Position numbers and translations under genes: made by a program. The notes below the pieces were generated by a model, which was given only the letters and a program-made list of their open reading frames with translations, made no database searches and was not told the origin of the DNA. A stretch of DNA of 19,746 nucleotides. Source: a virus. Its lineage: Duplodnaviria > Heunggongvirae > Uroviricota > Caudoviricetes. The DNA lies in the IMG/VR virus record IMGVR_UViG_2671180921_000033, positions 1 to 19,746 of that record, one strand, 5' to 3'. The stretch's first letter is position 1. Each line of letters begins with the position of its first letter. Shown piece by piece: positions 313 through 13,612 of this stretch.

Positions 313-345
313 TGCGAATAACCTACATAAACGGTAATTGCGGAA

Positions 346-371: not shown

Positions 372-383
372 TGATGATAAATC

Positions 384-458
<75 letters not shown>

Positions 459-461
459 ATA

Positions 462-537
<76 letters not shown>

Positions 538-603
538 GTTGGTTCCTCGGGTGTGAGTGAGATGCCCGGACGCGTAATTTGCCCTTCCCTCGGAACCGCA
601 GAG

Positions 604-631
604 ATAATACAAATAAATAACAAGAATTCAA
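604..631 (-). promoter_or_regulatory. Candidate sigma70 promoter for the tRNA-Thr/tRNA-Gly operon
   Basis: Minus strand TTGAAT - 16 nt - TATTAT with an AT-rich upstream tract, about 60 nt upstream of the tRNA-Thr 5' end. Confidence 0.4.
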
Positions 632-727
632 TATTTGCTTATTCGTCTGTCGAAAAAGCCAGCAAGCTGAAAGACCGGTATTCGCAACCACCAGCGCGTT
701 TAATGTTCTGTGCTGTTTTTCGGGCAC

Positions 728-748
728 AAAAAACCCGCCAGTGGCGGG
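728..748 (-). terminator. Rho-independent terminator downstream of the MazF-like gene
   Basis: Minus strand hairpin CCCGCCACTGGCGGG followed by TTTTTT. Confidence 0.45.
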
Positions 749-771
749 GATCTTTTGATAAAAACGACAAA

Positions 772-793
772 GGCACCATCAAGGTGCCTTTTA
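772..793. terminator. Second hairpin terminator, bidirectional-looking
   Basis: GGCACC-ATCAA-GGTGCC followed by TTTTAC on plus; on minus the same hairpin is followed by TTTGTCGTTTTT. Confidence 0.35.
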
Positions 794-931
794 CACAGGG
801 GCAGCAGGCTTGTCATCACCTTATTGCTACTCCTGGCTTCCTGTTCGGAAGTCTCACAAGTCCCATCAGGGTACAGCGACAGTATCAGTCAACACACTAT
901 GTGTGTCAATATAAATTCATATCGAATTCGA

Positions 932-1333
932 TTATCGATACAGATAAGCCATCCCTATCCCGTGCAATACCGCCCGTTTAATATTCTCAAACTCATCTTC
1001 CGCGATCATAGGAACAATATAATTTCGCCCTTCCCAGGTTCTGGTTTTTATGCGATCCAGTCGGCTCAATGAAACCGTCATCAACATGTCACATTTTACC
1101 CAACAAGTAATATGCTCATTACCAGGAATGGGGTTTTCTGATAACTCATGATGGCAATCTCTGCGAGGGATCGGTTCAGTAGTGCTTATTGGTACCACTG
1201 TTACCAATTGATTGTTGTGTCTGTTTCTGGACACGACTACCACTGGCCTGACCTTGACTATTTCAGGAACAACCATTCCCCGAAAATCACACATTAAAAC
1301 AGAACGAACAGACGGCTGATACTTTAACACCAT
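932..1333 (-). CDS. MazF/PemK-like toxin (putative endoribonuclease), apparently without an adjacent antitoxin gene
   Basis: Translation from ATG at 1333: MVLKYQPSVRSVLMCDFRGMVVPEIVKVRPVVVVSRNRHNNQLVTVVPISTTEP... The pattern (RP-hydrophobic-VVS, NN, VVPITT) is typical of the MazF/PemK/Kid fold. The ORF-track version starts 26 codons upstream at a GTG. Confidence 0.5.
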   Translation of the reverse strand: MVLKYQPSVRSVLMCDFRGMVVPEIVKVRPVVVVSRNRHNNQLVTVVPISTTEPIPRRDCHHELSENPIPGNEHITCWVKCDMLMTVSLSRLDRIKTRTWEGRNYIVPMIAEDEFENIKRAVLHGIGMAYLYR

Positions 1334-1436
1334 AAATCTCTTTGCCTGATAATGACGACTTGTGAACTCCACTACAAACAAAATGATTCTGCTGAACAGG
1401 CAGTTCCGCACTGTGCATTATAACCTGTTAAGCCAA

Positions 1437-1460
1437 CAAAAAAACCCGCTCGGCGGCGGG
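1437..1460 (-). terminator. Rho-independent terminator after the ORF6N antirepressor-like gene
   Basis: Minus strand CCCGC-CGCCGA-GCGGG followed by TTTTTTTG. Confidence 0.55.
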
Positions 1461-1538
1461 TTTAAGCTGTGTGGCGTAGTAACCACTCTTAACAGGATAT
1501 TCAACTTTTTACGATCGTAAAGCGTTCAGGAAAAATTT

Positions 1539-2099
1539 TTAAAGCCGCATCAGTCGTTCCACCAGCTGATCTTTACGGGCAACGATCCAGCCGCGTTGTT
1601 CCAGATAAAATTTGAACCGTTCCAGAGTGCATACCATCGCATCGGCGGGCACTTTTTCCGCGAAGTCGACCTGACCGTGTTTATCGAAGTGGATCAGTAA
1701 TGCGCATCCATCATTTTCGGTGGGGGAGCTTTGTTTTGCTGGTGGCTGTTTCTGGCTGAAATAACAGTCTTCCAGTTTTTCGAACACTTCCCATGCCTGA
1801 TCGGTTTCGAGCATTTTGGCGTGGCGTGCTGCGCCTCGTTCTGTCCAGAGGACGAGGGAGCGGGCGCGTTTTGCAACTGACTTACTATCTGTAAGCCTGT
1901 TCTTGAATTCTCTTAGCTCCGTACCTTCGATTTTAAAAAAATGCTTACCTTCAATAAACCGCTCCCGATTCCGGGTATGGTTCACCTGAATATTTATAGC
2001 CTCAGTACCATATAGCTGAGCAAGTAGTTCGGTAGTGATAACGGGGATCTGGTTGTGGGTGATTGCAGGAAGAGTGTTGACAGAAATTTGAACAGTCAT
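1539..2099 (-). CDS. Phage antirepressor-like protein, ORF6N/KilA-N-type N-terminal domain plus a C-terminal domain shared with the Rha protein at 14908..15462
   Basis: N-terminus PVITTELLAQLYGTEAINIQVNHTRNRERFIEGKHFFKIEGTELREFKN matches the ORF6N-domain pattern. C-terminus LLIHFDKHGQVDFAEKVPADAMVCTLERFKFYLEQRGWIV parallels LVVHFDEHGNIRFTETVPDGALVCTLDTFRFYLEKQGWTLV in the Rha ORF. SD GAGGTCG precedes the ATG. Confidence 0.75.
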   Translation of the reverse strand: MTVQISVNTLPAITHNQIPVITTELLAQLYGTEAINIQVNHTRNRERFIEGKHFFKIEGTELREFKNRLTDSKSVAKRARSLVLWTERGAARHAKMLETDQAWEVFEKLEDCYFSQKQPPAKQSSPTENDGCALLIHFDKHGQVDFAEKVPADAMVCTLERFKFYLEQRGWIVARKDQLVERLMRL

Positions 2100-2260
2100 A
2101 ACGACCTCGCGTTTCGATAATTTTTACCTCACCACCGTCAGGTTCCAATCATCGGGTGGCGAACTGTGCAGGGTTGGAACTACCGGTCGAAACATCCGGC
2201 GCACCTTTCGGTGCCCCCACACAGTCCACCATAAATCGCGAATGTGACTGTGCTTAGCGC

Positions 2261-2283
2261 ATAAAAAAACCGCCAGCGCGGTT
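2261..2283 (-). terminator. tR'-like intrinsic terminator downstream of the late promoter
   Basis: Minus strand AACCGC-GCTG-GCGGTT followed by TTTTTTTA, about 75 nt downstream of the candidate PR' start. Confidence 0.6.
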
Positions 2284-2343
2284 ATGCACCGTTTCGATAT
2301 CCGGGGTTCCAATCCCGACGCCAGATTTTGCTGACGCGTGAGG

Positions 2344-2373
2344 AATATAGCCCCGGACAATGTGTCTGGTCAA
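2344..2373 (-). promoter_or_regulatory. PR'-like late promoter (candidate Q-utilisation region) immediately downstream of the Q gene
   Basis: Minus strand TTGACC - 17 nt - CTATAT starts 5 nt after the Q stop codon. The position is as in lambdoid PR'/qut/tR' modules. Confidence 0.45.
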
Positions 2374-2377
2374 GCAC

Positions 2378-2764
2378 CTACATAATTCGTTCTACGTATC
2401 TGTCCATCTCCAGCCGGATATCAAGCATCATCAACATGCCATCGATAACCCCTTCCGCTTTCTGCAGGCGCTTGCCAATACAGGTATCCGAACACCCATG
2501 CTTTCGTGCCAGTCCCATAAAAGTCATTCCACCTACGTAATAATCCACCAACAAATCGTGCAAATCCTGATTTTTCTTGTTCAACCGGGCCATACAGCCA
2601 CAAATTATCATTGCATCATTATCAGAACACTGAGGACGTGATTTCACTTTCGGCGGGATTAATCCTTTAAAACCAGCAGCGATTGACGCCCATGACACAT
2701 CTTCGTGGTTGTTTGCAGCCCATGCCCCCCACCGCTCCATCACCTGCTGAATATCACGCACCAT
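2378..2764 (-). CDS. Late-gene antiterminator Q (phage antitermination protein Q family)
   Basis: Translation [61 protein letters not shown]...DIRLEMD closely resembles, from memory, the Q homologues of E. coli cryptic prophages (QuuD-type). ATG at 2764; the ORF-track version starts at the GTG at 2773. Confidence 0.75.
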
Positions 2765-3131
2765 CGTTATCACCTGTAATTTCGTAAACCTTCACACCCA
2801 GCCGACCACCAGGAACGACCTGACCGCGCACTATATTGATTTCATCAAACTGCTCGTCGTCTATGAGTAGTCCTGCATGGGTCAGTGCATCCAGTGGTGC
2901 TTTCAACAGATTGTCCAGGTCACGACGGCGCTTATCCGGTGGCTCCACAATCATCTTTATCGCCAGCCTTCCGGACAGGTTTAATTTCAGCCACTGCTGG
3001 CGAACAATTAGCGCCACATCACGGCGATAACGCTTTCCTGCTTCCGAGATGAAATACGTATTGCCATGACGTCGCCAGTAGGTATTCACCGTCGGCGGGT
3101 AAGGCAAAACAAATTCTATGCGTTCAGTCAT
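2754..3131 (-). CDS. rusA: RusA Holliday-junction resolvase
   Basis: Translation [43 protein letters not shown]...[29 protein letters not shown] carries the RusA hallmark motifs (PP-NxYx[11 protein letters not shown]). Its start abuts the DUF968 stop. Confidence 0.8.
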
Positions 3132-4187
3132 TCATGCTTTCCACTTCAGGACACCCGAATTTCTCGCGTGCATTAAAAAACGAATCAGCAACAACAGCTG
3201 GCTGCCGTGTTTTTCTTCAAAATCTTTTACCCCGGCGTGCAGTTCGTTATGACATTTACGGCACAGCGGAATAACAAACAAATCATCAGCCTTTGTTCCC
3301 ATCCCTCCCAGTCCATGACCAATGATGTGATGCGGATCATCTGCCTGATTACCGCACGTCATGCATTTCTGCGTTTTTACCCAGCGCGTGTATACAGGCA
3401 TCTCTTCCCGTTGTGGTTTCTGGCGCTGGAGATACTGAGCCGGAGAATCCGGATCAACGGCAATGCTGACCACCGTCTTTTCCTGTGGCGGGTTTTGCTG
3501 GTGGGCGTGAGGCAGCGGCGCAAGATTTTTTGTGCGCTGCTTCAGTATGCTGGTGGCTGTCTGTTCTCCCGGTATGATGTCGCTTTCGCGGTACACCGAG
3601 CGGATTTTTTCCGCACGCAATCCCAGCGAACGACGCAATACCGCTTCCGGTAGCGCGTCCGCCACCTGATTGCGGACCGCCCACCAGGATAATTCAGCCA
3701 GAGATAATTCACGCTCCTGCGTACCGCTTATTGCGTGACCGATGACGTCAATCATCCATGCTGACAGGTTTTGATGAGCAAGTTGCTCGAGTGATTCGGC
3801 TGTCTGGTCACGCAACTGGTTGTCGCAGTGCCAGCACAACACCATCGCGCCGGTACCGTAACGATGTATGACGGTTTCGCTGTGGTGATAATCGCCGTGT
3901 GGCCACTGGCAGGATTTAATATGGCGCAACAGCCAGTCAGACAATGCGCCAGCGCCGCCAGCAGCACGAATCACCCGTGCGTTACTGAAAAACGGCAGCA
4001 ATGTTTTGTCTTCCACCAGTGGCTGGCGAACGGCGGGAACGACCCCGGACGGCAGATTACGCATGCTTTTCGGTTCAGGCTCCACCAGCACACGCCCCTG
4101 CATAAACAAAGGCATCGCATCAGGACCGGGCCTGAAAAGTACAATCCCCAGGCGGTGAGCAATTTCAGGAGTCACTAATACCCTCAC
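3132..4187 (-). CDS. DUF968-like prophage protein with a C-terminal HNH-like Cys/His motif
   Basis: 351 codons with a GTG start preceded by SD GGAGG. C-terminal CMTCGNQADDPHHIIGHGLGGMGTKADDLFVIPLCRKCHNELH. Size and position next to Q resemble YdfU-type prophage genes, as far as I recall. Confidence 0.55.
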   Translation of the reverse strand: MRVLVTPEIAHRLGIVLFRPGPDAMPLFMQGRVLVEPEPKSMRNLPSGVVPAVRQPLVEDKTLLPFFSNARVIRAAGGAGALSDWLLRHIKSCQWPHGDYHHSETVIHRYGTGAMVLCWHCDNQLRDQTAESLEQLAHQNLSAWMIDVIGHAISGTQERELSLAELSWWAVRNQVADALPEAVLRRSLGLRAEKIRSVYRESDIIPGEQTATSILKQRTKNLAPLPHAHQQNPPQEKTVVSIAVDPDSPAQYLQRQKPQREEMPVYTRWVKTQKCMTCGNQADDPHHIIGHGLGGMGTKADDLFVIPLCRKCHNELHAGVKDFEEKHGSQLLLLIRFLMHARNSGVLKWKA

Positions 4188-4188
4188 G

Positions 4189-4467
4189 TTACCTCCAGAT
4201 CCGTTGCTGGAATGTGCGGGACGGACGCGGTGGGCGCTCGGAGTACGGCAGCCTGACGGAGATTATCCAGTGTCGGAAGTCAAGACTGAGGTCTTTCCTG
4301 ACCTCGCGTCCGCGCCTGCGATAACACTGAATCAGCCACTCGGCCTGTTCTTCAGTGCATGGTGGGTGTTGGTACCAGTCGGTTTTAAATGCGTGAAAAC
4401 GCCGTCCGTGCATGCTGGCAAAGACGGCTGAATTATCAGGATTGTGTAGTCTGGAATTTTGCGCCAT
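4189..4467 (-). CDS. Hypothetical nin-region protein (92 aa)
   Basis: Intact ORF, co-oriented with and separated by 1 nt from the DUF968 gene. No family recognised. Confidence 0.4.
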   Translation of the reverse strand: MAQNSRLHNPDNSAVFASMHGRRFHAFKTDWYQHPPCTEEQAEWLIQCYRRRGREVRKDLSLDFRHWIISVRLPYSERPPRPSRTFQQRIWR

Positions 4468-4587
4468 CGGTTGTCTCTGCTGGCGCAGCAGGTGCCAGTT
4501 GTTCAGACTGGCGTGACAGATTATAACTCATAAAGAATAAAAATGACAAAATCTGCCAAAAAATAAAAATACGAAAAACAAGTTCTG

Positions 4588-4920
4588 TTACGACACCTTC
4601 CTGAAAATTGCCAGCGGTGTCATACCATAGGAAGTTCCTCTCCTCCCAATCATTTCCCGAATACCTTCAAGCATATAATCTATTGCAGATCTGATTTCGT
4701 TAGAAGGAATTTCTGGCTCTGAAACAGTCTCGTCACTTATATCCGGGAGCGCATCTATAACACCGATGACATACCATTCACCACGTATTCTTGAACCATA
4801 CTTTAATGCAAGATTTCCCACATCCAAAGCTAAATCATCAGCCTTGACCGACATCCAGAATATATTTTCTTGATCATCAAGAAGCTCTATCTGTGTAGAG
4901 AACGGGAGTAAAGAAAACAT
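4588..4920 (-). CDS. Hypothetical protein (110 aa), third gene of an AT-rich 3-gene cassette
   Basis: ORF starts 13 nt after the stop of the upstream gene. Acidic protein (MFSLLPFSTQIELLDDQENIFWMSVKADDLALDVGNL...). No family recognised. Confidence 0.5.
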   Translation of the reverse strand: MFSLLPFSTQIELLDDQENIFWMSVKADDLALDVGNLALKYGSRIRGEWYVIGVIDALPDISDETVSEPEIPSNEIRSAIDYMLEGIREMIGRRGTSYGMTPLAIFRKVS

Positions 4921-4933
4921 GTTAGCAGCAATT

Positions 4934-5416
4934 TTAGTATGATAAATTTCTTCTTGAATGTTTTTTTTTCTGATTTGGTGATTTAGTCTGCTTTAGCTCT
5001 TTTCGTTTTGCATCTTTATACATAGGAAAAACATCATGAGCCATTTTCACATCAAATAATTTGATATGCCCTTTTACCATCACCAGACTTCCAATTTCTG
5101 CATTTTCTAAGCTCGTTGCCACCAAGCCTTGTTCGTGCAACTTATCAAAAAAATTTAATGGTAAAGACCATGATGAGTCAAAATGCCGCTCTTGCGTTCT
5201 TGCAAAAGAATCACCCGCATTTTTCCTGGCATTAAATAATGAAACGCCACCTTTAAGTTCATTTAATGAATGCTCAGAACTGGACGAGATTTGTTTTACA
5301 GCATTCAATACTCCCGATGGAAATAATTGCGCAGTGAAGTAACCTACGCGCTCTTTGTCAAGATAAAGGTAATCAAATAGTGAATCTACAGCTTGACAAT
5401 CTTGATCCATTGGCAT
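4934..5416 (-). CDS. Hypothetical protein (about 160 aa), second gene of the AT-rich 3-gene cassette
   Basis: Start ATGCCAATGG preceded by SD AAAGAGGTG, overlapping the upstream small ORF by 44 nt. Lys-rich C-terminal tail. No family recognised. Confidence 0.5.
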   Translation of the reverse strand: MPMDQDCQAVDSLFDYLYLDKERVGYFTAQLFPSGVLNAVKQISSSSEHSLNELKGGVSLFNARKNAGDSFARTQERHFDSSWSLPLNFFDKLHEQGLVATSLENAEIGSLVMVKGHIKLFDVKMAHDVFPMYKDAKRKELKQTKSPNQKKKHSRRNLSY

Positions 5417-5552
5417 GCACCTCTTTGATCCTTGCTTTTTCCTCAGCAATTTTTCTTTGCTTTTCTTCGATTTCATCATACATCAATTGCATTTCAGCGA
5501 TGTCGAACGGCTTTGAACCACTTTTAAGCGATCTCACCAGTTTGCGGATCAT
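5373..5552 (-). CDS. Small hypothetical protein (59 aa), first gene of the AT-rich 3-gene cassette
   Basis: ATG at 5552 preceded by SD AGAGGGGA. Translation MIRKLVRSLKSGSKPFDIAEMQLMYDEIEEKQRKIAEEKARIKEV. Below the ORF-track length cutoff. Confidence 0.35.
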   Translation of the reverse strand: MIRKLVRSLKSGSKPFDIAEMQLMYDEIEEKQRKIAEEKARIKEVHANGSRLSSCRFTI

Positions 5553-5692
5553 TGCGTATCCCCTCTTAAATATCGTTCAAATTATGTTCAAACAAATTCT
5601 CAAACACAACAATGTGATACATCAATGTTTGGGTGCGTTGAGGATGCCTGACACATCAGAGGTGGCGAGGGATTTCTCCCCCGCCAGGTCTC

Positions 5693-5848
5693 TTACTCCT
5701 CAGGTTCGTAAGCTGTGAAGACAGCGACCTCCGTCTGGCCGGTTCGGATTCGTACCTCGCAGAGGTCTTTCCTCGTTACCAGTGCCGTCACAATGACGGT
5801 TAAACAGATGACGATCAGGGCGATTAACATCGCCTTTTGCTGCTTCAT
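5693..5848 (-). CDS. hok: Hok/Gef-family type I toxin
   Basis: Translation MKQQKAMLIALIVICLTVIVTALVTRKDLCEVRIRTGQTEVAVFTAYEPEE (51 aa) has the Hok signature: TM helix then RK-LCE-R-G-EVAAF. SD AAGGAGAAG precedes the ATG. Confidence 0.8.
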   Translation of the reverse strand: MKQQKAMLIALIVICLTVIVTALVTRKDLCEVRIRTGQTEVAVFTAYEPEE

Positions 5849-5894
5849 AGCCTGCTTCTCCTTGCCTTTCGGCACGTAAGAGGCTAACATCCAT
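5700..5894 (-). CDS. mok-like overlapping reading frame (translational coupler for hok)
   Basis: 64-codon frame starting at ATG 5894 and overlapping hok almost entirely, as in hok/mok/sok loci. Start choice within the 107-codon ORF-track frame is uncertain. Confidence 0.35.
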   Translation of the reverse strand: MDVSLLRAERQGEAGYEAAKGDVNRPDRHLFNRHCDGTGNEERPLRGTNPNRPDGGRCLHSLRT

Positions 5895-5965
5895 ATGTCT
5901 AGCATGAAATTGGCCTAAGTTTAATATTAAACGTCTTGCGGGACGCGTAATGTTAACTGGGCTTT
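5895..5965 (+). ncRNA. Possible Sok-like antisense RNA (approximate coordinates)
   Basis: Candidate plus-strand promoter TTGCCT - 17 nt - TAACAT (5862..5890) facing into the hok/mok leader. Ends not defined; inferred from hok/sok architecture. Confidence 0.2.
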
Positions 5966-6245
5966 TCTCTATCTGCCGTTGGTGTTCATGCCCGAGGCAG
6001 ATAGCCTCAAGCACACGCAGCAATTTTACTTAACTATTTTTCCGAAAAATTAATTATTACTAATGCATAGTTTATAAATCACACGATGATATTATAAATC
6101 TAGTGTAAGGGAACATTTAAGTTAAGAATCACATTTTACTAGCCAAAAACATAAAACAGATCTCTTAATAATAAGCAGCTTTTATATAAAAACCACGATG
6201 TGTTTTCATAATAATATGCAGTACCAGCTACTCAGCAATATGAGG

Positions 6246-6764
6246 TTATTCAGTCAAGCTTTTGCGCCCGTACGCACTTCTCAAACTTGCACATGTTTCT
6301 CTAATCCTAACAATTTGCATACAATCAGGTCTTAGAGGTCGGTTGTGAACATCACTATCATATGTCATGGCTTGGCGTAATTCCTTAAACAATTTTGCCT
6401 TATATTTTTCACCACCGGCCCTTTCAATTTCTTTAGCGATAGTAGTTAAACTCTTAACCTCCCTACTCATTTTTGCTAACGCCAGTGTAGGTTCTTTATT
6501 ATTATCTTCAGCCCAGAACTCTAAGGCAAAATCCTCAAGCAACTCCAGTTTTTGTCTAAACTCACCGATCCATTCATTATGAGCATCTTTAATAGCATCT
6601 CCTCTACTTTTTGTGGTTTGGAGATAAGCAATATATGCCGTAATCCCCCATCCAACTAAAACTAAAAACCAAGTTACATACTGATTTTCATCTTTAAACA
6701 AAGAAAAAAACTTACACCAAAAGTCTGCACTCCAAGTACAGACCTGGATACTTGAATTAGCCAT
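6246..6764 (-). CDS. Single-pass membrane protein (172 aa), fourth gene of the STAS/GHKL cassette
   Basis: Hydrophobic helix WFLVLVGWGITAYIAYL near the N-terminus, followed by a charged helical region. Its start overlaps the upstream gene stop as ATGGCTAA. Confidence 0.55.
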   Translation of the reverse strand: MANSSIQVCTWSADFWCKFFSLFKDENQYVTWFLVLVGWGITAYIAYLQTTKSRGDAIKDAHNEWIGEFRQKLELLEDFALEFWAEDNNKEPTLALAKMSREVKSLTTIAKEIERAGGEKYKAKLFKELRQAMTYDSDVHNRPLRPDCMQIVRIRETCASLRSAYGRKSLTE

Positions 6765-7071
6765 GAGATACCTTTATAGCGTCCTCGATATATTCATTTA
6801 TCTCGTCAATTAACTCAGGTTCTTCTTCTGAGATAAATTTAATCCCTTTAACCTTATCAGGACTCACGCCACGCCTAATCAATCCGCCAAAGCACTCCTC
6901 CAAGAAAGAAGAACCATACCCCTCCGTTCCATCAAGGTCTATTGTTAGATCTGGTGAATGTTTAAGCTCTCTTTCTACCCACTCACGAAACTCCTCACCA
7001 GAAGCGGGCCCCAATCTTTTAAAACGAGGTCCTGGGCAAGGATAACGACTGGCTACTTTTATAATTTTCAT
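6757..7071 (-). CDS. Small STAS-like (DUF4325-like) protein, 104 aa
   Basis: ATG at 7071, 1 nt after the GHKL gene stop. Segment DLTIDLDGTEGYGSSFLEECFGGLIRRG resembles the STAS-like core of anti-sigma-antagonist-type proteins. The domain call is by eye. Confidence 0.45.
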   Translation of the reverse strand: MKIIKVASRYPCPGPRFKRLGPASGEEFREWVERELKHSPDLTIDLDGTEGYGSSFLEECFGGLIRRGVSPDKVKGIKFISEEEPELIDEINEYIEDAIKVSHG

Positions 7072-7072
7072 A

Positions 7073-7552
7073 CTACTCAGTTTCCACCTCACAAGGAATT
7101 GTCCATTCAATTATAGTACCATTAACAGAGCTTTTGTAATCTCTAAGCACTTCGTTAATAATGCCAGTTTTCCCTTTGTAAATATAGCGCCCTTTTGATG
7201 AAAAAATCCCCATAAAACCATCACCTATTGAATCGATTACCGATTTGATATCATTCAAGCCTTTACCTCGGTTCAGCTCCCCAGTCCTCGTTTCCTGAAG
7301 TAACGTGGAAGCCTTTATATAAGTAGAATCCTTTACATTTGCTAATGGAACTCTAAGTTTTTTGAAGATGTTCATTAGCACACTTACACCTTGTGTTTTA
7401 GGCAATGTTGAAGGTATTCCCACTCCTTTATCACATATTACCACTGTAAGATTTTTGTCATGTATGCCAGCAAAGGTCCACCACTTAGCTGTTTCGTCAT
7501 CTTCCGTATGCATTAAATCATCAACATAAGCATGCTCGACAGAATTAGACAT
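7073..7552 (-). CDS. GHKL-family ATPase, anti-sigma-factor/serine-kinase-like (159 aa)
   Basis: Bergerat-fold motifs in order: N-box NSVEHAY, G1 VVICDKGVGIP, G2 RGKGLNDI, G3 NGTIIEW. Size similar to RsbW/SpoIIAB-type kinases. Confidence 0.65.
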   Translation of the reverse strand: MSNSVEHAYVDDLMHTEDDETAKWWTFAGIHDKNLTVVICDKGVGIPSTLPKTQGVSVLMNIFKKLRVPLANVKDSTYIKASTLLQETRTGELNRGKGLNDIKSVIDSIGDGFMGIFSSKGRYIYKGKTGIINEVLRDYKSSVNGTIIEWTIPCEVETE

Positions 7553-7556
7553 GGCC

Positions 7557-8240
7557 TCAGTAAAGCCACGGTATAATTTTTTTTGATGATTTTCTTTCTA
7601 ACTCTTTTTTTATTTCCACCATCATTTCTTTTGCTAAAAGAGGCTCAGAACAAGAACCTGATGTATATTTCCAAAAAGTCACATCATCATAACTTTCAGT
7701 TTCTCTTTTAGGTTTCCTTAATAGATCATAGAAACCGACTTGATTCAAAATGCTTTCAATTTTCTTGTCTTTCGGATGTGAAAACCCTATGGCATTTACT
7801 CCAAATTCACTTTTCTTAATAAGCACATCAACTTCAGCGAGAAAAGATAACATAGCAGCTGCACTTATATATTTAGTTGAAGAAAAATCTATATAAACAC
7901 GATTATTCTTCAACACGCAATCGCGTAAATTATTTAAAAATTTATTCATGATTTCAAAATCACGATCGTTGTAATAATTAATAGATATCGGAGCAGAAAA
8001 AACCACCCTTTTATTACTTGTTGTCAACTTTTTCTTCGAGACTCGTAGCTTACGAGTGCGTTTGTAATATTCCAGTTTTCTCTTCGCATTTTCTACTCCT
8101 TCCCAATCCGTGCTTTTCAGAGAATTAAATATCCCCCTCTTCAGTTTCGAAACTTGCCCGCGATAGTTTAGTTTTTGAACTTTTCTTCTTTTTTGCAGAT
8201 TCATAAATATTTTCACATTTGATAACATCGCAGATATCAT
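7557..8240 (-). CDS. Protein with a basic N-terminal region and a STAS-like domain (227 aa), first gene of the cassette
   Basis: Lys/Arg-rich N-terminus (KRRKVQKLNYRGQVSKLKRG...KRTRKLRVSKKKL), then RVYIDFSSTKYISAAAMLSFLAEVDVL...NAIGFSHPKDKKIESILNQVGFYDLL, which resembles a STAS/anti-sigma-antagonist fold. No clear SD, so the start is uncertain. Confidence 0.5.
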   Translation of the reverse strand: MISAMLSNVKIFMNLQKRRKVQKLNYRGQVSKLKRGIFNSLKSTDWEGVENAKRKLEYYKRTRKLRVSKKKLTTSNKRVVFSAPISINYYNDRDFEIMNKFLNNLRDCVLKNNRVYIDFSSTKYISAAAMLSFLAEVDVLIKKSEFGVNAIGFSHPKDKKIESILNQVGFYDLLRKPKRETESYDDVTFWKYTSGSCSEPLLAKEMMVEIKKELERKSSKKIIPWLY

Positions 8241-8476
8241 ATTTCACATGAAAAATTTTTTGTAGCCCCTCCATCAAAGAAAATCGCTGCCTTTATCAAA
8301 AACATTTCGAAATTGTCAGCAACTTAACGTTCCCCCACCCCAACAGTAAAATTGATCCCACTAGCTCAAGTGAAAGTCACCCCGTAACATCCTGTTGATA
8401 CCCAGCGCCTGCGCTTTCGCTCTTACAGCATAACAAGAACGATCGATCCCCCATATGCTTTCTACCGTCAACGTGC

Positions 8477-8938
8477 CTACACACTGACCTGAGTGCCATG
8501 ATTTCCCTCATGCATAACCTGTTCACCGAATACCTCTCGAAAACCATTCTGGTAAAACGCCAGTACGCGCTGCATAGCTTCGCTCCTCCGACACTCGCGA
8601 CAGATTATGTTCAGACGCCTGTCATAGCGGCGTATTTCTCCGTCTGGTAATGAATAAACCAGGTCCGGGTCGCTCTTTTTTTTCACTGCTGCTTTCGACA
8701 TCTTTTTGCGGGCCTTTATCCAGTCCTTACGTGCCTGTTCAGACGGAAATAACCCGTAGCCGGAGTTGTATAAATCGCCACTGGCAACCAGCTCTCTGGC
8801 AAGAACACTCATCAGATACCTTGTCGCACCTGTCTTAGCTTCCAGTTGTCGTAACGTCTCGCGCCCACTCTGGCGCACGAGCTCAACAACCTTCCCCTTA
8901 ATTTTTTCCCGCTCTTCTTGTGTAAATACTTTTGCCAT
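8477..8938 (-). CDS. Hypothetical nin-region phage protein (154 aa)
   Basis: ATG at 8938 preceded by SD GGAGG. Co-oriented with the replication genes. No family recognised. Confidence 0.5.
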   Translation of the reverse strand: MAKVFTQEEREKIKGKVVELVRQSGRETLRQLEAKTGATRYLMSVLARELVASGDLYNSGYGLFPSEQARKDWIKARKKMSKAAVKKKSDPDLVYSLPDGEIRRYDRRLNIICRECRRSEAMQRVLAFYQNGFREVFGEQVMHEGNHGTQVSV

Positions 8939-8953
8939 AAGCGCCTCCGGCAA

Positions 8954-9715
8954 TCACTTTTCCGATGCAACATGGCGGGAAGAATCAGTAATCTGTCGTA
9001 CAATATCCCTGTGCTTGTTCAACTCACGCAGCGCGGCGCAGACACGCTCCCACTTCTGGACATGATTTTTCGCCCGACGCAGTTCGCGGTTTGCCATATG
9101 CAGTGATGGTAAAACCAGGTCATCCGCTCGCGTTTCAGTAAACGATGGCAGCGACTGCACAATGTCCGCCACAGTTTCTGTTTTAATATCTTCCTGTGTT
9201 GCAGCCTCCTGTACTGGTAACGCAACACCTGCGGGCTGAGGAAAGGCCTTACCATCAGTTTCCGCTACCGATGCTGCTTTCGGCTCTGCTGGTAAATTAT
9301 CGCCCGGTATGCAGTAACGAAATTTACCGCCCTGATTTACGCGAATCAGACGACCTTTGCTGATTGCCATTGCCAACGTTGAAGCCACTTTGCGTGATGT
9401 GGTACCAAAAAATGTAGCCAGCTCATCCGCCGTTTGTGGTCCACGTTGTTCAATCGTCGCAGTTAAATCGCTCTCTGAAATTTTCGCGACTGTTGCCGTG
9501 GTAGTTTCTTCCGGCAGTTCTGCCGGCGCTGGCTGTTCCTGCTGAACGTTGTTATCAGCCACACGCCAGGTGTACGCGCTTTTATCAACGAAACCAGCCT
9601 TTTTCAGTTCCCATAGTTCGTTCAGCACTTCTTCACGACTGATATCAAGTCGCGCAGCAAGTTCTATGGATGTGGCTTTTCCCATCGCTTTCAGTGCGTC
9701 AAAAACAGTCTCCAT
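8954..9715 (-). CDS. Hypothetical phage protein, possibly a winged-helix DNA-binding protein (253 aa)
   Basis: ATG at 9715 preceded by SD GGGAGG. Two segments ([26 protein letters not shown] and [29 protein letters not shown]) look like HTH/winged-helix units. Confidence 0.5.
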
Positions 9716-9737
9716 TAAAATTTCCTCCCGGTAAAAA

Positions 9738-10484
9738 TCACTTCGCAATTCCTGGCTGGACGACATTCGGACGCCAGCTCTCCCAGTTAAAATTCACCCA
9801 TCGCCCGCCGTTCATGGTCATGCGGTCCATCACTCGCTCTCCCAGAAGGGTGCTCATCGCGGTATGGTTCAGGTTCGTCAGCATCCCGACACTGCGCATC
9901 GAAGCCGTTCTGCGGTCGACTATCTGGTTCAGAGTGACCTGTTCATTGCGTGTATCACGCTGCATGCCAATCTCATCCAGAACCAGCAGGTCAACGTTGC
10001 ACAATCCCTGCAAAAACTTTTCACCCGAGTTTTTGTTGTCGTAGCTGCCGTGCAACGCCAGCATCACATCAGCCACAGTGATCACAATCACACTCCGCCC
10101 CTTCGCCAGAAGATGGTTGCCGATGGCTGCCGCAAGGTGATTTTTTCCGGTACCCGGCTTACCGCTGAACACGAAATTTGTGCACCTGGTCATAAGTTCG
10201 TCCGCGATGGATTTTGCATGACTCAGCGCGTGGCGTTGCCCGTCGTTCTGCACCCGGTAATTCGCAAACGAACACTTCTGGTGCAACGGCTGGATACCCG
10301 AACGGTTCAGAATTTTTTCCGCATGAATCTTGTTATTCAGGCGATTAATCTCCTCACTACGTTTTCGCCCTTCAGCAAGCCACCACTCGTACCACTCTTC
10401 CCGTGTCCGGTACGGCGCGGTTACATGCTGTGGGGCCAGTCTGCGGATACGTTCAAGAACACCGCTTGCCGCAATATTTTTCAT
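9738..10484 (-). CDS. DnaC-like helicase loader (IstB-like AAA+ ATPase), lambda P equivalent
   Basis: Walker [18 protein letters not shown] and Walker [10 protein letters not shown]. Position immediately downstream of the O-like initiator. Confidence 0.85.
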
Positions 10485-10490
10485 GGTCAG

Positions 10491-11456
10491 TTACCCCCTG
10501 AAGCCTGGCGGAATTTCGGTATCCGGTTCAGAAATGTGATTCACACAACGCTGTGCCGGACCACGTCCCAGACGAATCACCAGCTCATCCCATTTTTCGC
10601 GGAGCTTTGACGGACTCATGATGTTTTTTACCCAGAATGAATCCCGCTGTACCCGACCAAACATTTCGCAAATTTGCCTGTGCGTTCTGCCATCCAGCAT
10701 CCGCATTGTGCGCACGTCATTGGCCCACGCGGTCCAGTTGGGTTCTTTCGGACGCGCGATCTCACCATCATCGCTGGCGGCCTGCTCGTAAAGACTCACG
10801 ATTCGTCCCCAGATCCACTGCGCACACGCCAAATCTTCCTGGCTGCCCCACTGGCGTTTTTTCGCACTGAACACAACCGCGTCAGGGTGTCGGGTTAAAA
10901 AATCCTGTTCAGCCGTCTGCGGGTCCGGTTGCGAAGCGTCCGGACGAGAAGTGTTTTTATTCTCTGTAGTAATCTCTGTTGTATTCTCTGTAAGATCATC
11001 GGGCCATTTTGACCCGATGACATTGGGTCGTTTTGAACCAATGGAGCGTGTCATTTTGGCCTCTTCCATCGTGTCATTTTGACCTGATGGAGCGGCGCAT
11101 TTTGACCTGATGGATTCGCTCGCTTTGCCACCATCTAAAAGCTCGCTCTCGTAATTAATCGTGTAAAAATTAGTCATGTCACGCTTTGATTTATTGAGCT
11201 TTTCGCAACGCAAAAGCCCCAGCGTTTTCAGACTTGCAAATGCGCGTTTTAACGTTGACTCTGACCAGAACGGGAACTGTTCCAGCCATTGTTCCGTTGT
11301 GTTATAAATCCAGCGAACACCGTCACACTCCATGCCGGAATTGGTATCTCTCAACCAGTAATGCAGCTGCTGCAACACGATGGCTTCGTTCAGACCTATT
11401 TTCATCGCCAGCTGCGTGTTTATAACCAGCGGGCGTTCAGCAAAAAGGAGCTTCAT
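10491..11456 (-). CDS. Replication initiator / replisome organiser (lambda O equivalent)
   Basis: N-terminal winged-helix-like segment LNEAIVLQQLHYWLRDTNSG, strong SD GGGGGAAGGG, and an internal iteron array (11001..11115) as in lambda O/ori. Confidence 0.7.
   Translation of the reverse strand: MKLLFAERPLVINTQLAMKIGLNEAIVLQQLHYWLRDTNSGMECDGVRWIYNTTEQWLEQFPFWSESTLKRAFASLKTLGLLRCEKLNKSKRDMTNFYTINYESELLDGGKASESIRSKCAAPSGQNDTMEEAKMTRSIGSKRPNVIGSKWPDDLTENTTEITTENKNTSRPDASQPDPQTAEQDFLTRHPDAVVFSAKKRQWGSQEDLACAQWIWGRIVSLYEQAASDDGEIARPKEPNWTAWANDVRTMRMLDGRTHRQICEMFGRVQRDSFWVKNIMSPSKLREKWDELVIRLGRGPAQRCVNHISEPDTEIPPGFRG
11001..11115. repeat. Iteron array (candidate phage origin) inside the O-like gene
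   Basis: Five copies of CATTTTGACC(C/T)GATGG-like repeats (two degenerate) spaced about 23-24 bp apart from 11005 to 11112, with shorter CTCTGT direct repeats just left of them. Confidence 0.55.
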
Positions 11457-11477
11457 CCCTTCCCCCGGAACACGTTA

Positions 11478-11903
11478 TCAATGCACCACCACGGCATTTC
11501 CTGCCGGACCACCGCGATTCATCTGGTCGAACAGAACGATCGCTGATGCAACGAACTCATCGATATCTTTCACCAGCCGATCCCGTCGCTCGACAATCTC
11601 CCGGTGATACTCCGAACTGTGACTGCGCATTCGGGCCACCAGCGGTGGCGGCATTGCCTTTTCGATCGCTGGTAACAACGCCTGAATTTTTTTAACCGCA
11701 TCAGGGGTGTCTTTCTCCACCCAGCGGAAAATCTTCTGAGTATTGCGAGCCAGGGCTTCTGGGTGTGAATCGTCGTACAGTTCCGGAAACGTCATTCCCA
11801 GCTCAAAATACGCTTTGGTAATCTCTGCAGCCGGAACTTTCTCGCCGTCCGGATGCGCCCAGGCATTCATCGCCATGCGGATGTGTTCATGCTTGATTTT
11901 CAT
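11478..11903 (-). CDS. YdaT-like prophage protein (CII-position gene)
   Basis: Begins MKIKHEHI and ends VVVH, as I recall for Rac YdaT. Start overlaps the upstream gene stop as ATGA. SD GGGAG. Confidence 0.5.
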   Translation of the reverse strand: MKIKHEHIRMAMNAWAHPDGEKVPAAEITKAYFELGMTFPELYDDSHPEALARNTQKIFRWVEKDTPDAVKKIQALLPAIEKAMPPPLVARMRSHSSEYHREIVERRDRLVKDIDEFVASAIVLFDQMNRGGPAGNAVVVH

Positions 11904-12160
11904 GAATCAACTCCCGCAGCTGGTTGTGTGTTAGCCTTAAACTCAGAAGGCAAGCCGTCGGTTGGGTTAGGATAAATATCTGGGCGGATTTCATGCGGGG
12001 TAACTTCCCACTTCATTAGTTGGCATAACGGAATTACCTGCTTTGGGGGAACGCCAAAGCTAAACCATTGCCAAACAGTCTGTTGAGCGACCCCCATATA
12101 ACGACCTATTTCAGCCTGAGTGTATTTCTGCCTAATTTTTTCGCGAGTGCTATCTAGCAT
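11900..12160 (-). CDS. Cro-like / YdaS-like HTH regulator
   Basis: HTH-like segment YTQAEIGRYMGVAQQTVWQWF. Divergent from the repressor gene across the operator region. SD GAGGAGGG. Confidence 0.6.
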   Translation of the reverse strand: MLDSTREKIRQKYTQAEIGRYMGVAQQTVWQWFSFGVPPKQVIPLCQLMKWEVTPHEIRPDIYPNPTDGLPSEFKANTQPAAGVDS

Positions 12161-12196
12161 TTTGCCCTCCTCTAAAAACTATAAGCAAAGCCTACA

Positions 12197-12229
12197 ATAA
12201 AAAACTGTATACGATCAACAGTTTTTTAT
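12197..12229. promoter_or_regulatory. Operator-like inverted repeat in the divergent promoter region
   Basis: Perfect 12-bp arms ATAAAAAACTGT - 9 bp - ACAGTTTTTTAT between the Cro-like and repressor genes. Confidence 0.5.
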
Positions 12230-12268
12230 TGTGATGCTTTTAACAGTATTTACCTGTAAAATTGAATA

Positions 12269-12670
12269 ATGATGAGCGCCCTAGAAGTATCTATGTACAG
12301 AATCAGCAAGCTTCTTCAGGAAACTGGATGGAGCCAGGCTGAGCTTGCCCGTAGAATTGGTGTGACACAACAAACTGTTCAACAATGGGTCAGCGGTAAG
12401 GCTACACCTAAAGCCTCAAGTTTGGATAAACTGGTTGAGGTTTCAGGGCATCCATTGCATTGGTTTTTATTGCCTCCTGAAGAGGGTGAGCAAATTTTCA
12501 CCCCTGACACGATGAAAATTGGTCCTCGCCAACGCGAACTGCTCCAAGCTTTTAGTGCGTTTCCTGAGGAAGACCAAGAAAAAATGCTTCAAGAAATCAA
12601 AGACAAGAAAAAATCAATGGAAGAAACCATTGCTCGGTGGCTGGCTGCACAAAAAAGCCGCCGGGCGTGA
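12269..12670 (+). CDS. XRE-family HTH repressor (PaaR-like; candidate prophage repressor)
   Basis: HTH segment WSQAELARRIGVTQQTVQQWVSGK. First gene of an operon with the antitoxin and toxin below. Start could be the ATG at 12269 or at 12293. Confidence 0.7.
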   Translation: MMSALEVSMYRISKLLQETGWSQAELARRIGVTQQTVQQWVSGKATPKASSLDKLVEVSGHPLHWFLLPPEEGEQIFTPDTMKIGPRQRELLQAFSAFPEEDQEKMLQEIKDKKKSMEETIARWLAAQKSRRA

Positions 12671-12697
12671 CCACAGTACAAGAAGAGGAGTTATGCC

Positions 12698-13611: not shown

Positions 13612-13612
13612 A

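What the first reader, a model, noticed from the sequence alone, without database searches (positions are those of the whole stretch)
4470..8476. AT-rich compositional island splitting the early-right operon
Between the 92-aa nin ORF and the 154-aa nin ORF the sequence is visibly more AT-rich than the flanking replication, RusA and Q genes, and holds all three accessory modules. Long AT-rich intergenic stretches (about 5900..6245 and 8241..8476) look like H-NS-type silenced promoter regions. This suggests a horizontally acquired moron block rather than core phage genes.
Basis: seen in the sequence. Interest (0 to 1): 0.45.

Follow-up and report, generated by a model that had tools for sequence, protein, structure and literature searches.

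The report
Two AT-rich cargo cassettes flanking hok/sok
The AT-rich stretch is real, but it is two separately acquired accessory gene cassettes on either side of a normal-composition hok/sok toxin locus, in a slot of a lambda-like prophage where relatives carry other toxin-antitoxin or anti-phage genes; this is an ordinary kind of phage mosaicism with one moderately interesting passenger.

Summary
Observation confirmed. Window 4470-8476 is 38.3% GC against about 50% in the flanks. The best two-breakpoint fit is 4520-8330. Third-position GC is 28-36% against 45-64%, and synonymous codon usage differs at p about 1e-31.

Interpretation partly supported. The region is not one block. Six related prophages give the same junctions: cassette A at 4516-5630, a hok/sok anchor at 5631-6036 with 50.7% GC, and cassette B at 6037-8531.

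- Cassette A holds a 59-aa ORF plus a DUF6414 gene. It occurs in 6 of 5426 complete E. coli genomes.
- Cassette B holds a STAS+GHKL kinase, a DUF4325 STAS-like protein and a single-pass membrane protein. It occurs in 24 of 5426 genomes.
- No complete genome carries both cassettes.
- Relatives fill the same slot with HicAB, IteAS, beta/sce7726 or methyltransferase cargo.

Cassette B resembles the recently described VapKSC kinase-controlled toxin-antitoxin defence, but has a membrane protein where the PIN toxin would be.

In this window both main cargo genes carry +1 frameshifts in poly-A runs. The same alleles appear in independent assemblies.

The "H-NS-silenced promoter" idea is untested. Promoter-like sites are not enriched. 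Half of 8241-8476 has normal GC, and 5906-6036 is the hok/sok RNA region.

The parts
4189..4467 (-). 92-aa Rem-like ORF. This is the last backbone gene on the left (promoter-distal) side of the slot.
   Evidence: ORF. Annotated 'toxin to Rem'/hypothetical next to YdfU (DUF968) in relatives. 55% GC. Backbone homology in L004, L006 and L007 ends at 4512-4515.
4516..5630 (-). Cassette A: an AT-rich (36.8% GC) two-gene cargo unit of a 59-aa ORF plus DUF6414.
5373..5552 (-). 59-aa ORF that overlaps the start of the DUF6414 gene and is its conserved partner.
   Evidence: Homologous 58-59-aa ORFs overlap DUF6414 genes in Enterobacter, Serratia and Citrobacter loci. Alignment.
4588..5410 (-). DUF6414 gene disrupted by a +1 frameshift, A9 instead of A8, at 4961-4969. 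It reads as ORFs 4934-5410 and 4588-4920.
   Evidence: Pfam DUF6414 gives 21.8 bits for the N-terminal fragment and 35.2 bits for the intact 274-aa relative. Deleting one A restores a 273-aa ORF collinear with relatives. All 30 homologues are 254-297 aa, 28 of them covering 99-100% of the repaired query. The same A9 allele is in at least 5 independent assemblies.
4520..4549 (-). Best promoter-like site in the region (TTGTCA-18-TATAAT). It lies at the left end of cassette A and faces rem/ydfU/rusA/Q.
   Evidence: 11 of 12 consensus matches. It lies in cassette-specific sequence 4516-4587, which is 24% GC. A related sequence is present in L002. Function not shown.
5631..6036 (-). hok/sok type I toxin-antitoxin locus. 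It has normal GC (50.7%) and serves as the conserved anchor and recombination site between the two cassettes.
   Evidence: Pfam HOK_GEF E 2.9e-23 for ORF 5693-5905. Rfam sok RF01794 scores 95 bits at 5843-6016. Homology to L001, L002, L003, L004, L005 and L007 is bounded at 5631 (5679 in L005) and 6028-6043. Eight differences from L001 fall in 5653-5895, then near-identity follows.
6037..8531 (-). Cassette B: AT-rich (36.8% GC) three-gene operon of K (STAS+GHKL kinase), S (DUF4325) and a membrane protein, plus its flanking non-coding DNA.
   Evidence: 99.8-99.9% identical in 24 of 5426 complete E. coli genomes. Other relatives carry different cargo here. The same three-gene order occurs in Vibrio, Klebsiella/Raoultella and Serratia loci.
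7073..8204 (-). K gene: an N-terminal STAS-like domain fused to an RsbW/SpoIIAB-like GHKL kinase domain. It is disrupted by a +1 frameshift, A8 instead of A7, at 7577-7584. It reads as ORFs 7557-8204 (or to 8240) and 7073-7552.
6757..7071 (-). S gene: a 104-aa STAS-like DUF4325 protein with an invariant GSSFLEE motif.
   Evidence: Pfam DUF4325 E 7.4e-12. Invariant residues. VapS of VapKSC belongs to the same Pfam family, E 2.7e-17. VapS Ser48 aligns with the first Ser of GSSF.
6246..6764 (-). 172-aa protein with one predicted transmembrane helix (residues 30-48). It is the third gene of the operon and the candidate effector.
   Evidence: No Pfam, NCBIfam or PADLOC family. Homologues of 150-175 aa (38-40% identity) follow DUF4325 genes in three other genera. 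Kyte-Doolittle maximum 1.73.
6037..6245 (-). 27% GC non-coding tail of cassette B, between the membrane-protein stop codon and the hok/sok locus.
   Evidence: GC. Only a weak A/U hairpin and no canonical terminator; fold z-scores are -0.1 and 0.7.
8205..8531 (-). Upstream non-coding region of cassette B. 8205-8330 is 31% GC and 8331-8531 is 50% GC. It includes a 15-codon cassette-linked extension of the DUF977 gene.
   Evidence: GC. No minus-strand promoter match at threshold. DUF977 C-terminal alignment. Backbone homology resumes at 8532-8549.
8477..8938 (-). DUF977 (LygF-like) gene. This is the last backbone gene on the right (promoter-proximal) side of the slot.
   Evidence: Pfam DUF977 E 2e-28. 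50% GC. Conserved in all relatives, with a variable C-terminal tail.

Best explanation
**What it is.** The window is a Rac/Qin-like lambdoid prophage whose early-right operon runs on the minus strand. The order is a cro-like gene, replication genes, DUF1627, DUF977, then rem, ydfU, rusA and Q. Between DUF977 and rem lies a hypervariable cargo slot. In this prophage the slot holds three units with separate histories:
- Cassette A (4516-5630): a 59-aa ORF plus DUF6414.
- A conserved, normal-GC hok/sok type I toxin-antitoxin locus (5631-6036).
- Cassette B (6037-8531): a kinase, STAS-like protein and membrane-protein operon.

**How it arose.** The two AT-rich cassettes are mobile accessory modules that keep about 36-41% GC wherever they occur. 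The comparisons suggest they are shuffled between prophages by recombination in the conserved flanks (rem, hok/sok, and DUF977/DUF1627/dnaC-like). The right half of the slot, about 5900-9766, was exchanged very recently with a COL60J-type prophage.

**Inferred function.** The slot carries toxin-antitoxin and anti-phage cargo. Cassette B most likely works like VapKSC. In that model a cue activates the STAS+GHKL kinase, which phosphorylates the conserved serine of the DUF4325 protein. This releases the third protein, here a small membrane protein rather than a PIN nuclease, to stop cell growth.

**State in this lineage.** The kinase gene and the DUF6414 gene both carry +1 frameshifts in poly-A runs. 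Both cassettes are therefore probably switched off or decaying.

**Shown versus inferred.** Shown: composition, junctions, distribution, domain content and the frameshifts. Inferred: recombination as the exchange mechanism, the defence function, the kinase-antitoxin-toxin logic, and H-NS or Rho silencing.
For: - **Composition and codon bias:**
- **Junctions reproduced in six relatives:** 4512-4515, 5631, 6028-6043 and 8532-8549.
- **Alternative cargo at the same junctions:** methyltransferase/HNH/DUF551; beta plus sce7726; small ORFs; a DNA-binding protein; iteA/iteS, named 'anti-phage' by NCBI; HicAB. relBE is inserted at hokD in K-12 Qin (PMC6379469).
- **Cargo GC is generally lower than backbone:** 37-47.5% versus 49-53% across the relatives.
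- **Disjoint and rare distribution:** A in 6 and B in 24 of 5426 genomes, with no overlap and none covering the whole region.
- **Identity profile against L001:** 99.9% over cassette B through DUF1627, 98% in hok/sok, 78.6% in the dnaC-like gene.
- **Both cassettes are self-contained units in unrelated contexts.** Cassette B is in a Vibrio island, a Klebsiella element beside a D5 primase, and a Serratia chromosome. Cassette A sits directly after the repressor gene in Serratia and Citrobacter prophages, and beside SduA_C/PemK in Enterobacter. Both have sporadic homologues in phages of other genera.
- **K-S homology to VapK and VapS:**, with PMC13373217.
- **Frameshifts:**
Against: - No promoter or terminator pair delimiting either cassette was found, and no repeats or att-like sites were noticed at the one junction pair inspected (no repeat search was run). 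The insertion mechanism is therefore inferred only from the mosaic pattern.
- No PADLOC model matches any island protein.
- The S-to-VapS profile match is weak (E 0.0077), and the STAS half of K did not align to VapK by hhalign.
- The third protein has no demonstrated toxicity.
- Both key genes are frameshifted here, so the cassettes may have no function in this strain.
- The 8331-8531 segment travels with cassette B but has normal GC, which the 'AT-rich cargo' picture does not explain.
Confidence: 0.8

Rival explanations
1. One reading: the whole 4 kb, including hok/sok, is one horizontally acquired moron block inserted once into the operon, and its AT-rich intergenic regions are H-NS-silenced promoters.
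For: One continuous low-GC trough fits well as a single segment, 4520-8330. All genes are co-oriented. In AR_0069 a single cargo (iteAS) spans the whole rem-DUF977 interval, so the slot can be filled in one piece. The draft assemblies GCA_001606755.1 and GCA_016997975.1 carry the same full combination.
Against: Cassettes A and B occur in non-overlapping sets of complete genomes and at very different identities. hok/sok is 50.7% GC and is shared with prophages that have neither cassette. A crossover lies inside hok/sok. Promoter-like sites are not enriched. 8331-8476 is 51% GC. 5906-6036 is hok/sok RNA.
Confidence: 0.07
2. The region is decaying junk: former cargo now being lost. Its AT-richness and frameshifts reflect relaxed selection and AT-biased mutation rather than functional accessory modules.
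For: Both largest genes are frameshifted. At least three independent frameshift alleles of the K gene exist in different assemblies. The cassettes are rare in E. coli.
Against: Apart from the single-base indel, the K gene has no substitutions relative to the intact allele over 1131 bp, so inactivation is very recent. Intact full-length homologues dominate: the P0001 cluster has 153 members, most of the 120 listed homologues are about 350-390 aa, and all DUF6414 homologues are full length. The S, membrane-protein, 59-aa and hok ORFs are intact. Low GC is shared by intact copies in other genera, so it is not a product of local decay.
Confidence: 0.1
3. The frameshifts, and hence the 'split genes', are homopolymer sequencing or assembly errors, and both cassettes are intact in the real genome.
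For: Both indels are single-base length changes in the two longest homopolymers of the island, A9 and A8. This is the typical error site for some platforms.
Against: The window's K allele (7,8) recurs in a second independent assembly, GCA_016997975.1. The DUF6414 A9 allele recurs in six contigs from at least five samples, including Logan read-set assemblies. Another run of the same length, T8 at 8676-8683, agrees with L001.
Confidence: 0.03

Closest known systems
Morons and mosaic accessory modules of lambdoid phages (Juhala et al. 2000 and Hendrix et al. 2000, recalled from memory; homeologous recombination model of Martinsohn et al. 2008, PMC2327257)
   Same: Extra genes are present in some phages and absent at the same position in close relatives. 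Their base composition differs from the neighbours. Patches of very high identity are flanked by moderately diverged 'shoulders': 99.9% next to 78.6% in the dnaC-like gene. The phage encodes a RecE-type exonuclease, the 15872-18325 ORF, which corresponds by position to genes annotated exonuclease/Exonuc_VIII in relatives and in the source contig.
   Different: No flanking promoter/terminator pair was detectable. The cargo genes are collinear with, and embedded in, the early-right transcript rather than in the late operon where the classic morons lie.
hokD-relBE region of the E. coli K-12 Qin prophage
   Same: Same backbone order of ydfU, rem and hok, with a toxin-antitoxin cargo placed next to hok (PMC6379469). 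The gene order in K-12 is recalled from memory.
   Different: Here hok/sok is complete, with the 70-codon ORF and a full-length sok model. The neighbours are DUF6414 and K-S-membrane cassettes instead of relBE.
VapKSC kinase-regulated toxin-antitoxin defence (Chambers et al., EMBO J 2026, PMC13373217)
   Same: A three-gene operon in the order kinase, STAS protein, effector. The kinase is a STAS + GHKL fusion resembling anti-sigma-factor kinases. The second protein is a Pfam DUF4325 member of about 105-116 aa with a conserved serine at the VapS Ser48 position. It is found in mobile elements and defence neighbourhoods.
   Different: The third gene is a 172-aa single-pass membrane protein, not a PIN nuclease. 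K is about 80 aa longer at its N terminus than VapK. Only the GHKL half aligned by profile. The paper describes no membrane-effector variant. No activity was tested, and K is frameshifted in this window.
Dodola defence system (DolA = DUF6414 protein, DolB = ClpB-like; as summarised in bioRxiv 10.1101/2024.10.26.620412)
   Same: The intact relatives of the cassette A protein pass the Pfam DUF6414 threshold (35.2 bits versus 25).
   Different: There is no ClpB-like partner; the partner is a conserved overlapping 59-aa ORF. No PADLOC model hits. The fold search is uninformative.
Variable cargo hotspots of P2-like phages and P4-like satellites (Rousset et al. 2022, PMC9122126)
   Same: A fixed position in a temperate-phage backbone where different strains carry different defence-type cargo. 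One relative carries a 'beta family protein', the family name of the P4 gop-beta-cII system.
   Different: The phage family and location differ: this is the nin-type region of a lambdoid early-right operon. The slot has an internal conserved hok/sok anchor that divides it in two. I found no paper describing this particular slot, but the literature search was limited.

Membership tests
Moron (lambdoid phage accessory insert) | Present in some phages and absent from close relatives at the same position | tested here: met
   Cassette A is absent in L004, where 57 bp take its place. Cassette B is replaced by other genes in L002-L007.
Moron (lambdoid phage accessory insert) | Base composition distinct from the neighbouring phage genes | tested here: met
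   36.8% GC for each cassette versus about 50-52% in the flanks. Codon chi-square p 1.6e-31.
Moron (lambdoid phage accessory insert) | Own sigma-70 promoter upstream and intrinsic terminator downstream | tested here: inconclusive
   No minus-strand promoter match upstream of either cassette, and no canonical terminator downstream. Site counts are not above shuffles. Upstream regions are not conserved between genera.
Moron (lambdoid phage accessory insert) | Expressed from the repressed prophage | not testable with these tools
   Needs transcript data from the lysogen.
hok/sok type I toxin-antitoxin | Hok/Gef family toxin ORF | tested here: met
   Pfam HOK_GEF E 2.9e-23, 81.6 bits.
hok/sok type I toxin-antitoxin | Conserved hok leader/sok antisense RNA structure | tested here: met
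   Rfam RF01794 scores 95 bits against a gathering threshold of 59, with the full-length model at 5843-6016.
VapKSC-type kinase-controlled toxin-antitoxin | Kinase with a STAS domain fused to an anti-sigma-factor-like GHKL domain | tested here: met
VapKSC-type kinase-controlled toxin-antitoxin | Small STAS (DUF4325) protein with a conserved phospho-acceptor serine | tested here: met
   The window protein hits DUF4325 at E 7.4e-12 and VapS hits it at E 2.7e-17. The invariant Ser in GSSFLEE aligns with VapS Ser48. Phosphorylation itself was not tested.
VapKSC-type kinase-controlled toxin-antitoxin | Third gene is a VapC-like PIN nuclease toxin | tested here: not met
   The third gene encodes a 172-aa protein with one TM helix and no PIN or other family match.
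VapKSC-type kinase-controlled toxin-antitoxin | Anti-phage protection and activation by ssDNA or DNA damage | not testable with these tools
   Requires plaque assays, kinase assays and toxicity assays.
Dodola defence system | DolA-type DUF6414 protein | tested here: inconclusive
   Pfam DUF6414 gives 35.2 bits for the intact relative and 21.8 bits, below the cut-off, for the window fragment. No PADLOC model hits at E <= 1.
Dodola defence system | Adjacent ClpB-like DolB | tested here: not met
   None is present in the window or in the three homologous loci. The conserved partner is a 58-59-aa ORF.
H-NS-silenced xenogeneic DNA | AT content clearly above that of the surrounding genome | tested here: met
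H-NS-silenced xenogeneic DNA | H-NS occupancy and derepression in an hns mutant | not testable with these tools
   The TCGATAAATT-like motif is not enriched: 28 matches versus 27 expected, 7 of them inside the island. This neither supports nor excludes binding.

The most novel reading that the evidence does not exclude
Cassette B is an undescribed effector variant of the VapKSC-type kinase-controlled toxin-antitoxin defence. In this reading a STAS+GHKL kinase and a DUF4325 antitoxin control a small membrane protein instead of a PIN nuclease. The two neighbouring A7 tracts in the linker between the kinase's STAS and GHKL domains would act as a slippage-prone on/off or splitting switch. Four allele states occur on otherwise identical genes: (7,7), (7,8), (8,7) and (6,7). 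Each frameshift leaves a restart ATG, preceded by GAGG, exactly at the start of the GHKL domain.
Probability: 0.3. Interest if true: 0.6.

Novelty: new member of a known kind. Interest (0 to 1): 0.35.

Why it matters
For the finding as stated, little is new. Low-GC accessory cargo at variable positions of lambdoid prophages is textbook mosaicism.

Three useful results came out of the check:
1. A precisely delimited two-compartment cargo slot (rem | hok/sok | DUF977) in Rac/Qin-like prophages. In the few genomes sampled it already holds HicAB, IteAS, beta/sce7726, methyltransferase, DUF6414 and kinase-STAS cassettes. It could therefore be mined as a defence and toxin-antitoxin hotspot.
2. A widespread three-gene relative of VapKSC with a membrane protein in the effector position. 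This would extend a 2026 discovery to a second effector class.
3. Recurrent single-base frameshifts in poly-A tracts of that kinase gene. These bear on how costly such cargo is, or on whether it is phase-variable.

Tried and rejected
- **PADLOC** scans of all island proteins and of the intact relatives gave nothing significant. NCBIfam gave nothing above threshold.
- **Promoter/terminator scan** of 4000-9000: counts equal to or below shuffles.
- **H-NS motif search:** no enrichment.
- **Folding of cassette-end RNAs:** no canonical terminator. The one clear terminator is in the empty site of L004, which cassette A replaces.
- **Alignment of regions upstream of the K gene** from four genera: no conserved element.
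- **PDB sequence searches** with the S protein and the K profile: nothing below E 0.4.
- **Literature searches** for IteA/IteS and for STAS + anti-phage + GHKL terms returned nothing. DUF4325 and DUF6414 are each mentioned in only 1-3 papers.
- **Insertion scars:** the sequences at the cassette A junctions and the matching empty site in L004 were read and nothing repeat-like stood out. No repeat search was run, so this is not a test.
- **The single-block hypothesis** was considered and rejected on distribution and identity data.

Full report
**Context.** The genes in and around the finding lie on the minus strand. Reading right to left, the order is:
- a cI-like repressor (12269-12670, plus strand) facing a cro/YdaS-like gene (11900-12160);
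- a YdaT-like gene, an O-like gene and a DnaC-like gene;
- DUF1627 (8954-9766) and DUF977/LygF-like (8477-8938);
- the island;
- a Rem-like 92-aa ORF (4189-4467), YdfU/DUF968 (3132-4187), RusA (2754-3131) and an antiterminator Q gene.

This is a Rac/Qin-type lambdoid prophage. Window 1-17552 is 100% identical to contig LOCS01000154.1 of assembly GCA_001606755.1.

**Observation.** The composition claim is correct and strong.
- GC is 38.3% for 4470-8476, against 49.8% and 48.7% for the rest of the window and 52.5% and 51.5% for the nearest 2 kb on each side.
- The best two-breakpoint segmentation is 4520-8330, with a log-likelihood gain of 82.6.
- GC3 is 0.28-0.36 for the island genes (0.42 for the 59-aa ORF) and 0.45-0.64 for the flanking genes.
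- Synonymous codon usage differs with chi-square 248.6, 41 df, p 1.6e-31. A/T-ending codons are 68% versus 45%.
- The dinucleotide signature of cassette B lies outside all 200 size-matched backbone samples. Cassette A lies about 2 SD out.

The island is not homogeneous, however. Positions 5631-6036 are 50.7% GC.

**Anatomy.** Pfam and Rfam identify that GC-normal core as a complete hok/sok locus. HOK_GEF scores E 2.9e-23, and sok RF01794 scores 95 bits at 5843-6016.

To its left (downstream in the operon) is a 59-aa ORF overlapping a DUF6414 gene. To its right are three genes: a 376-aa 'ATP-binding protein' in relatives, a 104-aa STAS-like DUF4325 protein, and a 172-aa protein with one predicted transmembrane helix.

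**Junctions from related prophages.** I compared the window with seven annotated loci:
- E. coli COL60J (L001), A19 (L002) and ETEC1703 (L003);
- phages vB_EcoS-813R8 (L004) and vB_EcoS-666R9 (L005);

Backbone homology ends at 4512-4515 in L004, L006 and L007. It resumes for hok/sok at 5631 (5679 in L005) and ends at 6028-6043. It resumes again at 8532-8549, within the last codons of DUF977. This defines cassette A as 4516-5630 and cassette B as 6037-8531.

The contents of the two sub-slots in the relatives are:

| Locus | rem-to-hok sub-slot | hok-to-DUF977 sub-slot |
|---|---|---|
| Window | 59-aa ORF + DUF6414 (cassette A) | kinase, STAS-like and membrane protein (cassette B) |
| L004 | 57 bp with an intrinsic terminator, no cargo | small ORFs |
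| L007 | a hypothetical gene plus HicAB | DUF551, Ea22-like and DUF4406 genes |
| L002 | DUF6414 cassette | methyltransferase, HNH and DUF551 genes |
| L003 | DUF6414 cassette | 'beta family' and sce7726 proteins |
| L005 | different backbone on this side | a DNA-binding protein |
| L001 | different backbone on this side (hypothetical protein, DUF1367) | cassette B |

In L006 the iteA/iteS pair, which NCBI names anti-phage, fills the whole interval and there is no hok. In K-12 Qin, relBE is reported to have inserted at hokD (PMC6379469). Cargo in this slot is generally lower in GC (37-47.5%) than the backbone (49-53%).

**Independent histories.**
- Cassette A occurs in 6 of 5426 complete E. 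coli genomes at 94-95% identity.
- Cassette B occurs in 24 genomes at 99.8-99.9% identity.
- The two accession lists do not overlap, and no complete genome covers 80% of 3100-9800.
- Against L001 the window is 99.9% identical over cassette B, 99.8% over DUF977 and DUF1627, 98% over hok/sok with all eight differences left of 5896, and 78.6% in the dnaC-like gene.

The recent exchange unit is therefore about 5900-9766. One crossover lies inside hok/sok and the other near the DUF1627/dnaC-like boundary. This is the 'identical patch with diverged shoulder' pattern that Martinsohn et al. attribute to phage-recombinase-driven homeologous recombination (PMC2327257). The window's 15872-18325 ORF corresponds by position to the genes annotated exonuclease or Exonuc_VIII (RecE-type) in relatives and in the source contig.

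**The cassettes are portable units.**
- K-S-membrane operons with all three proteins homologous occur in a Vibrio fluvialis island, next to a transposase and a D5 primase in Klebsiella/Raoultella, and between housekeeping genes in Serratia. The Vibrio island lies beside AlpA, YagK/YfjJ and HipA genes and holds a second, more diverged cassette of an unannotated protein, a DUF4325 protein and a small protein.
- The 59-aa ORF + DUF6414 pair lies immediately after the repressor gene in Serratia and Citrobacter prophages, and beside SduA_C and PemK genes in Enterobacter.
- Distant homologues occur sporadically in phages of Marinobacter, Bordetella, Moraxella, Acinetobacter and Clostridium.
- In all these places the cassettes are 35-41% GC, with flanks ranging from 40 to 55%. 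Low GC is a property of the cassettes, not of this locus.

**What cassette B probably does.** The AlphaFold model of the intact kinase (pLDDT 82, pTM 0.81) has two parts.
- An N-terminal domain matches STAS domains: SulP STAS at 9.9 and RsbV at 9.1.

A 2026 paper describes exactly this pairing. CapK/VapK are STAS+GHKL kinases that phosphorylate a STAS partner. VapKSC is a three-gene toxin-antitoxin defence in which phosphorylation of VapS Ser48 releases the PIN toxin VapC. It gives about 2 logs of protection against phage Bas42 (PMC13373217).

I took VapK and VapS sequences from that paper's appendix and found:
- VapS is a Pfam DUF4325 member at E 2.7e-17, the same family as the window's S protein.
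- The K profile aligns to the VapK GHKL domain with 89% probability.
- VapS Ser48 aligns with the invariant first serine of GSSFLEE.

The third gene is not a PIN nuclease but a small membrane protein. The paper describes no such variant. I therefore file cassette B as 'works like VapKSC, not a member'. The kinase-antitoxin-membrane-toxin logic is inference.

**What cassette A probably does.** This is much less clear. DUF6414 is the family of Dodola DolA. But there is no ClpB-like partner, no PADLOC hit and no informative fold match. Its position after cI in other prophages suggests a lysogen-expressed exclusion or defence function. That is inference only.

**Both cassettes are damaged here.**
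- The K gene has A8 where L001 has A7 (window 7577-7584). That is the only difference across the gene. It splits the gene into 215/227-aa and 159-aa ORFs.
- The DUF6414 gene has A9 where a relative has A8 (4961-4969). Removing one A restores a 273-aa ORF.
- Homologues of both proteins are overwhelmingly full length.
- The alleles are probably real. The K allele recurs in GCA_016997975.1. The DUF6414 allele recurs in six contigs from at least five samples.
- Other assemblies carry different frameshifts, A8 or A6, in a second A7 tract 27 nt upstream in the K gene, again with no other change.

Either the gene is repeatedly lost, or the tracts behave as a switch, or some of these alleles are platform errors. 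I cannot separate these possibilities.

**The intergenic and H-NS claim.** Region 5900-6245 is part hok/sok leader (5906-6036, 44% GC) and part cassette B tail (6037-6245, 27% GC). Region 8241-8476 is 33% GC up to 8330 and 51% GC beyond. Promoter-like sites are not enriched (11 versus 11.8 +/- 2.8). None lies on the gene strand upstream of cassette B. The single strong site (4549-4520) points out of cassette A toward rem. The H-NS high-affinity motif is at chance level. That H-NS would coat DNA of 27-37% GC in an enterobacterium is a fair expectation from established knowledge. It applies to the whole of both cassettes and remains untested.

**Verdict.** This is horizontally exchanged accessory cargo, but as two independent cassettes around a conserved hok/sok anchor in a hypervariable slot, not as a single moron block with silenced promoters. 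The phenomenon is ordinary. The VapKSC-like membrane-effector operon and its recurrent poly-A frameshifts are the only parts that merit follow-up.

Noticed in passing
window 7577-7584 and 7605-7611; loci L016, L018, L019, L021: The kinase gene of cassette B occurs in four length states of two neighbouring poly-A tracts: (7,7) intact, (7,8) in the window, (8,7), and (6,7). These come from different assemblies and there are no other differences over 1131 bp. Every frameshift leaves a 159-aa ORF that restarts at the GHKL domain, with GAGG just upstream of its ATG.
   Followed up: partly
window 12698-13176 (+): A PaaA2-like antitoxin (63 aa) and a ParE toxin (95 aa) sit directly downstream of the cI-like repressor gene. 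This is another accessory toxin-antitoxin module, lying outside the AT-rich island. The region is 42-46% GC.
   Followed up: partly
window 2152-2350 (-) and 14662-14850 (+): There are two copies of an isrK-like plus C4-antisense-like RNA pair. One lies next to the Q gene and one lies upstream of or overlapping the Ash/Rha-type regulator gene (14611-15462). The first copy also has a c4-a1b1 target match.
   Followed up: no
window 932-1411 (-), 13756-14052 (-), 384-537 (-): A PemK/MazF-like toxin ORF, a weak GhoS-like ORF, and tRNA-Gly(TCC) plus tRNA-Thr(TGT) genes lie downstream of Q.
   Followed up: no
window 8331-8531: A 200-bp segment travels with cassette B, being present only in COL60J-type relatives, but has normal GC (50%). 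It adds a 15-residue tail to the DUF977 protein. Its origin is unexplained.
   Followed up: partly
L004 3920-3976 versus window 4516-5630: In the phage that lacks cassette A, hok is followed by a canonical intrinsic terminator (AACCCGC-UUCG-GCGGGUU followed by a U-run). Cassette A replaces it. In the window, transcripts through hok may therefore read on into the 59-aa ORF and DUF6414.
   Followed up: partly
L008 8120-9455 (Vibrio fluvialis): A second, more diverged cassette lies directly after the first K-S-membrane operon. It holds a 187-aa protein, a DUF4325 protein and a 147-aa protein. This suggests tandem paralogous systems.
   Followed up: no
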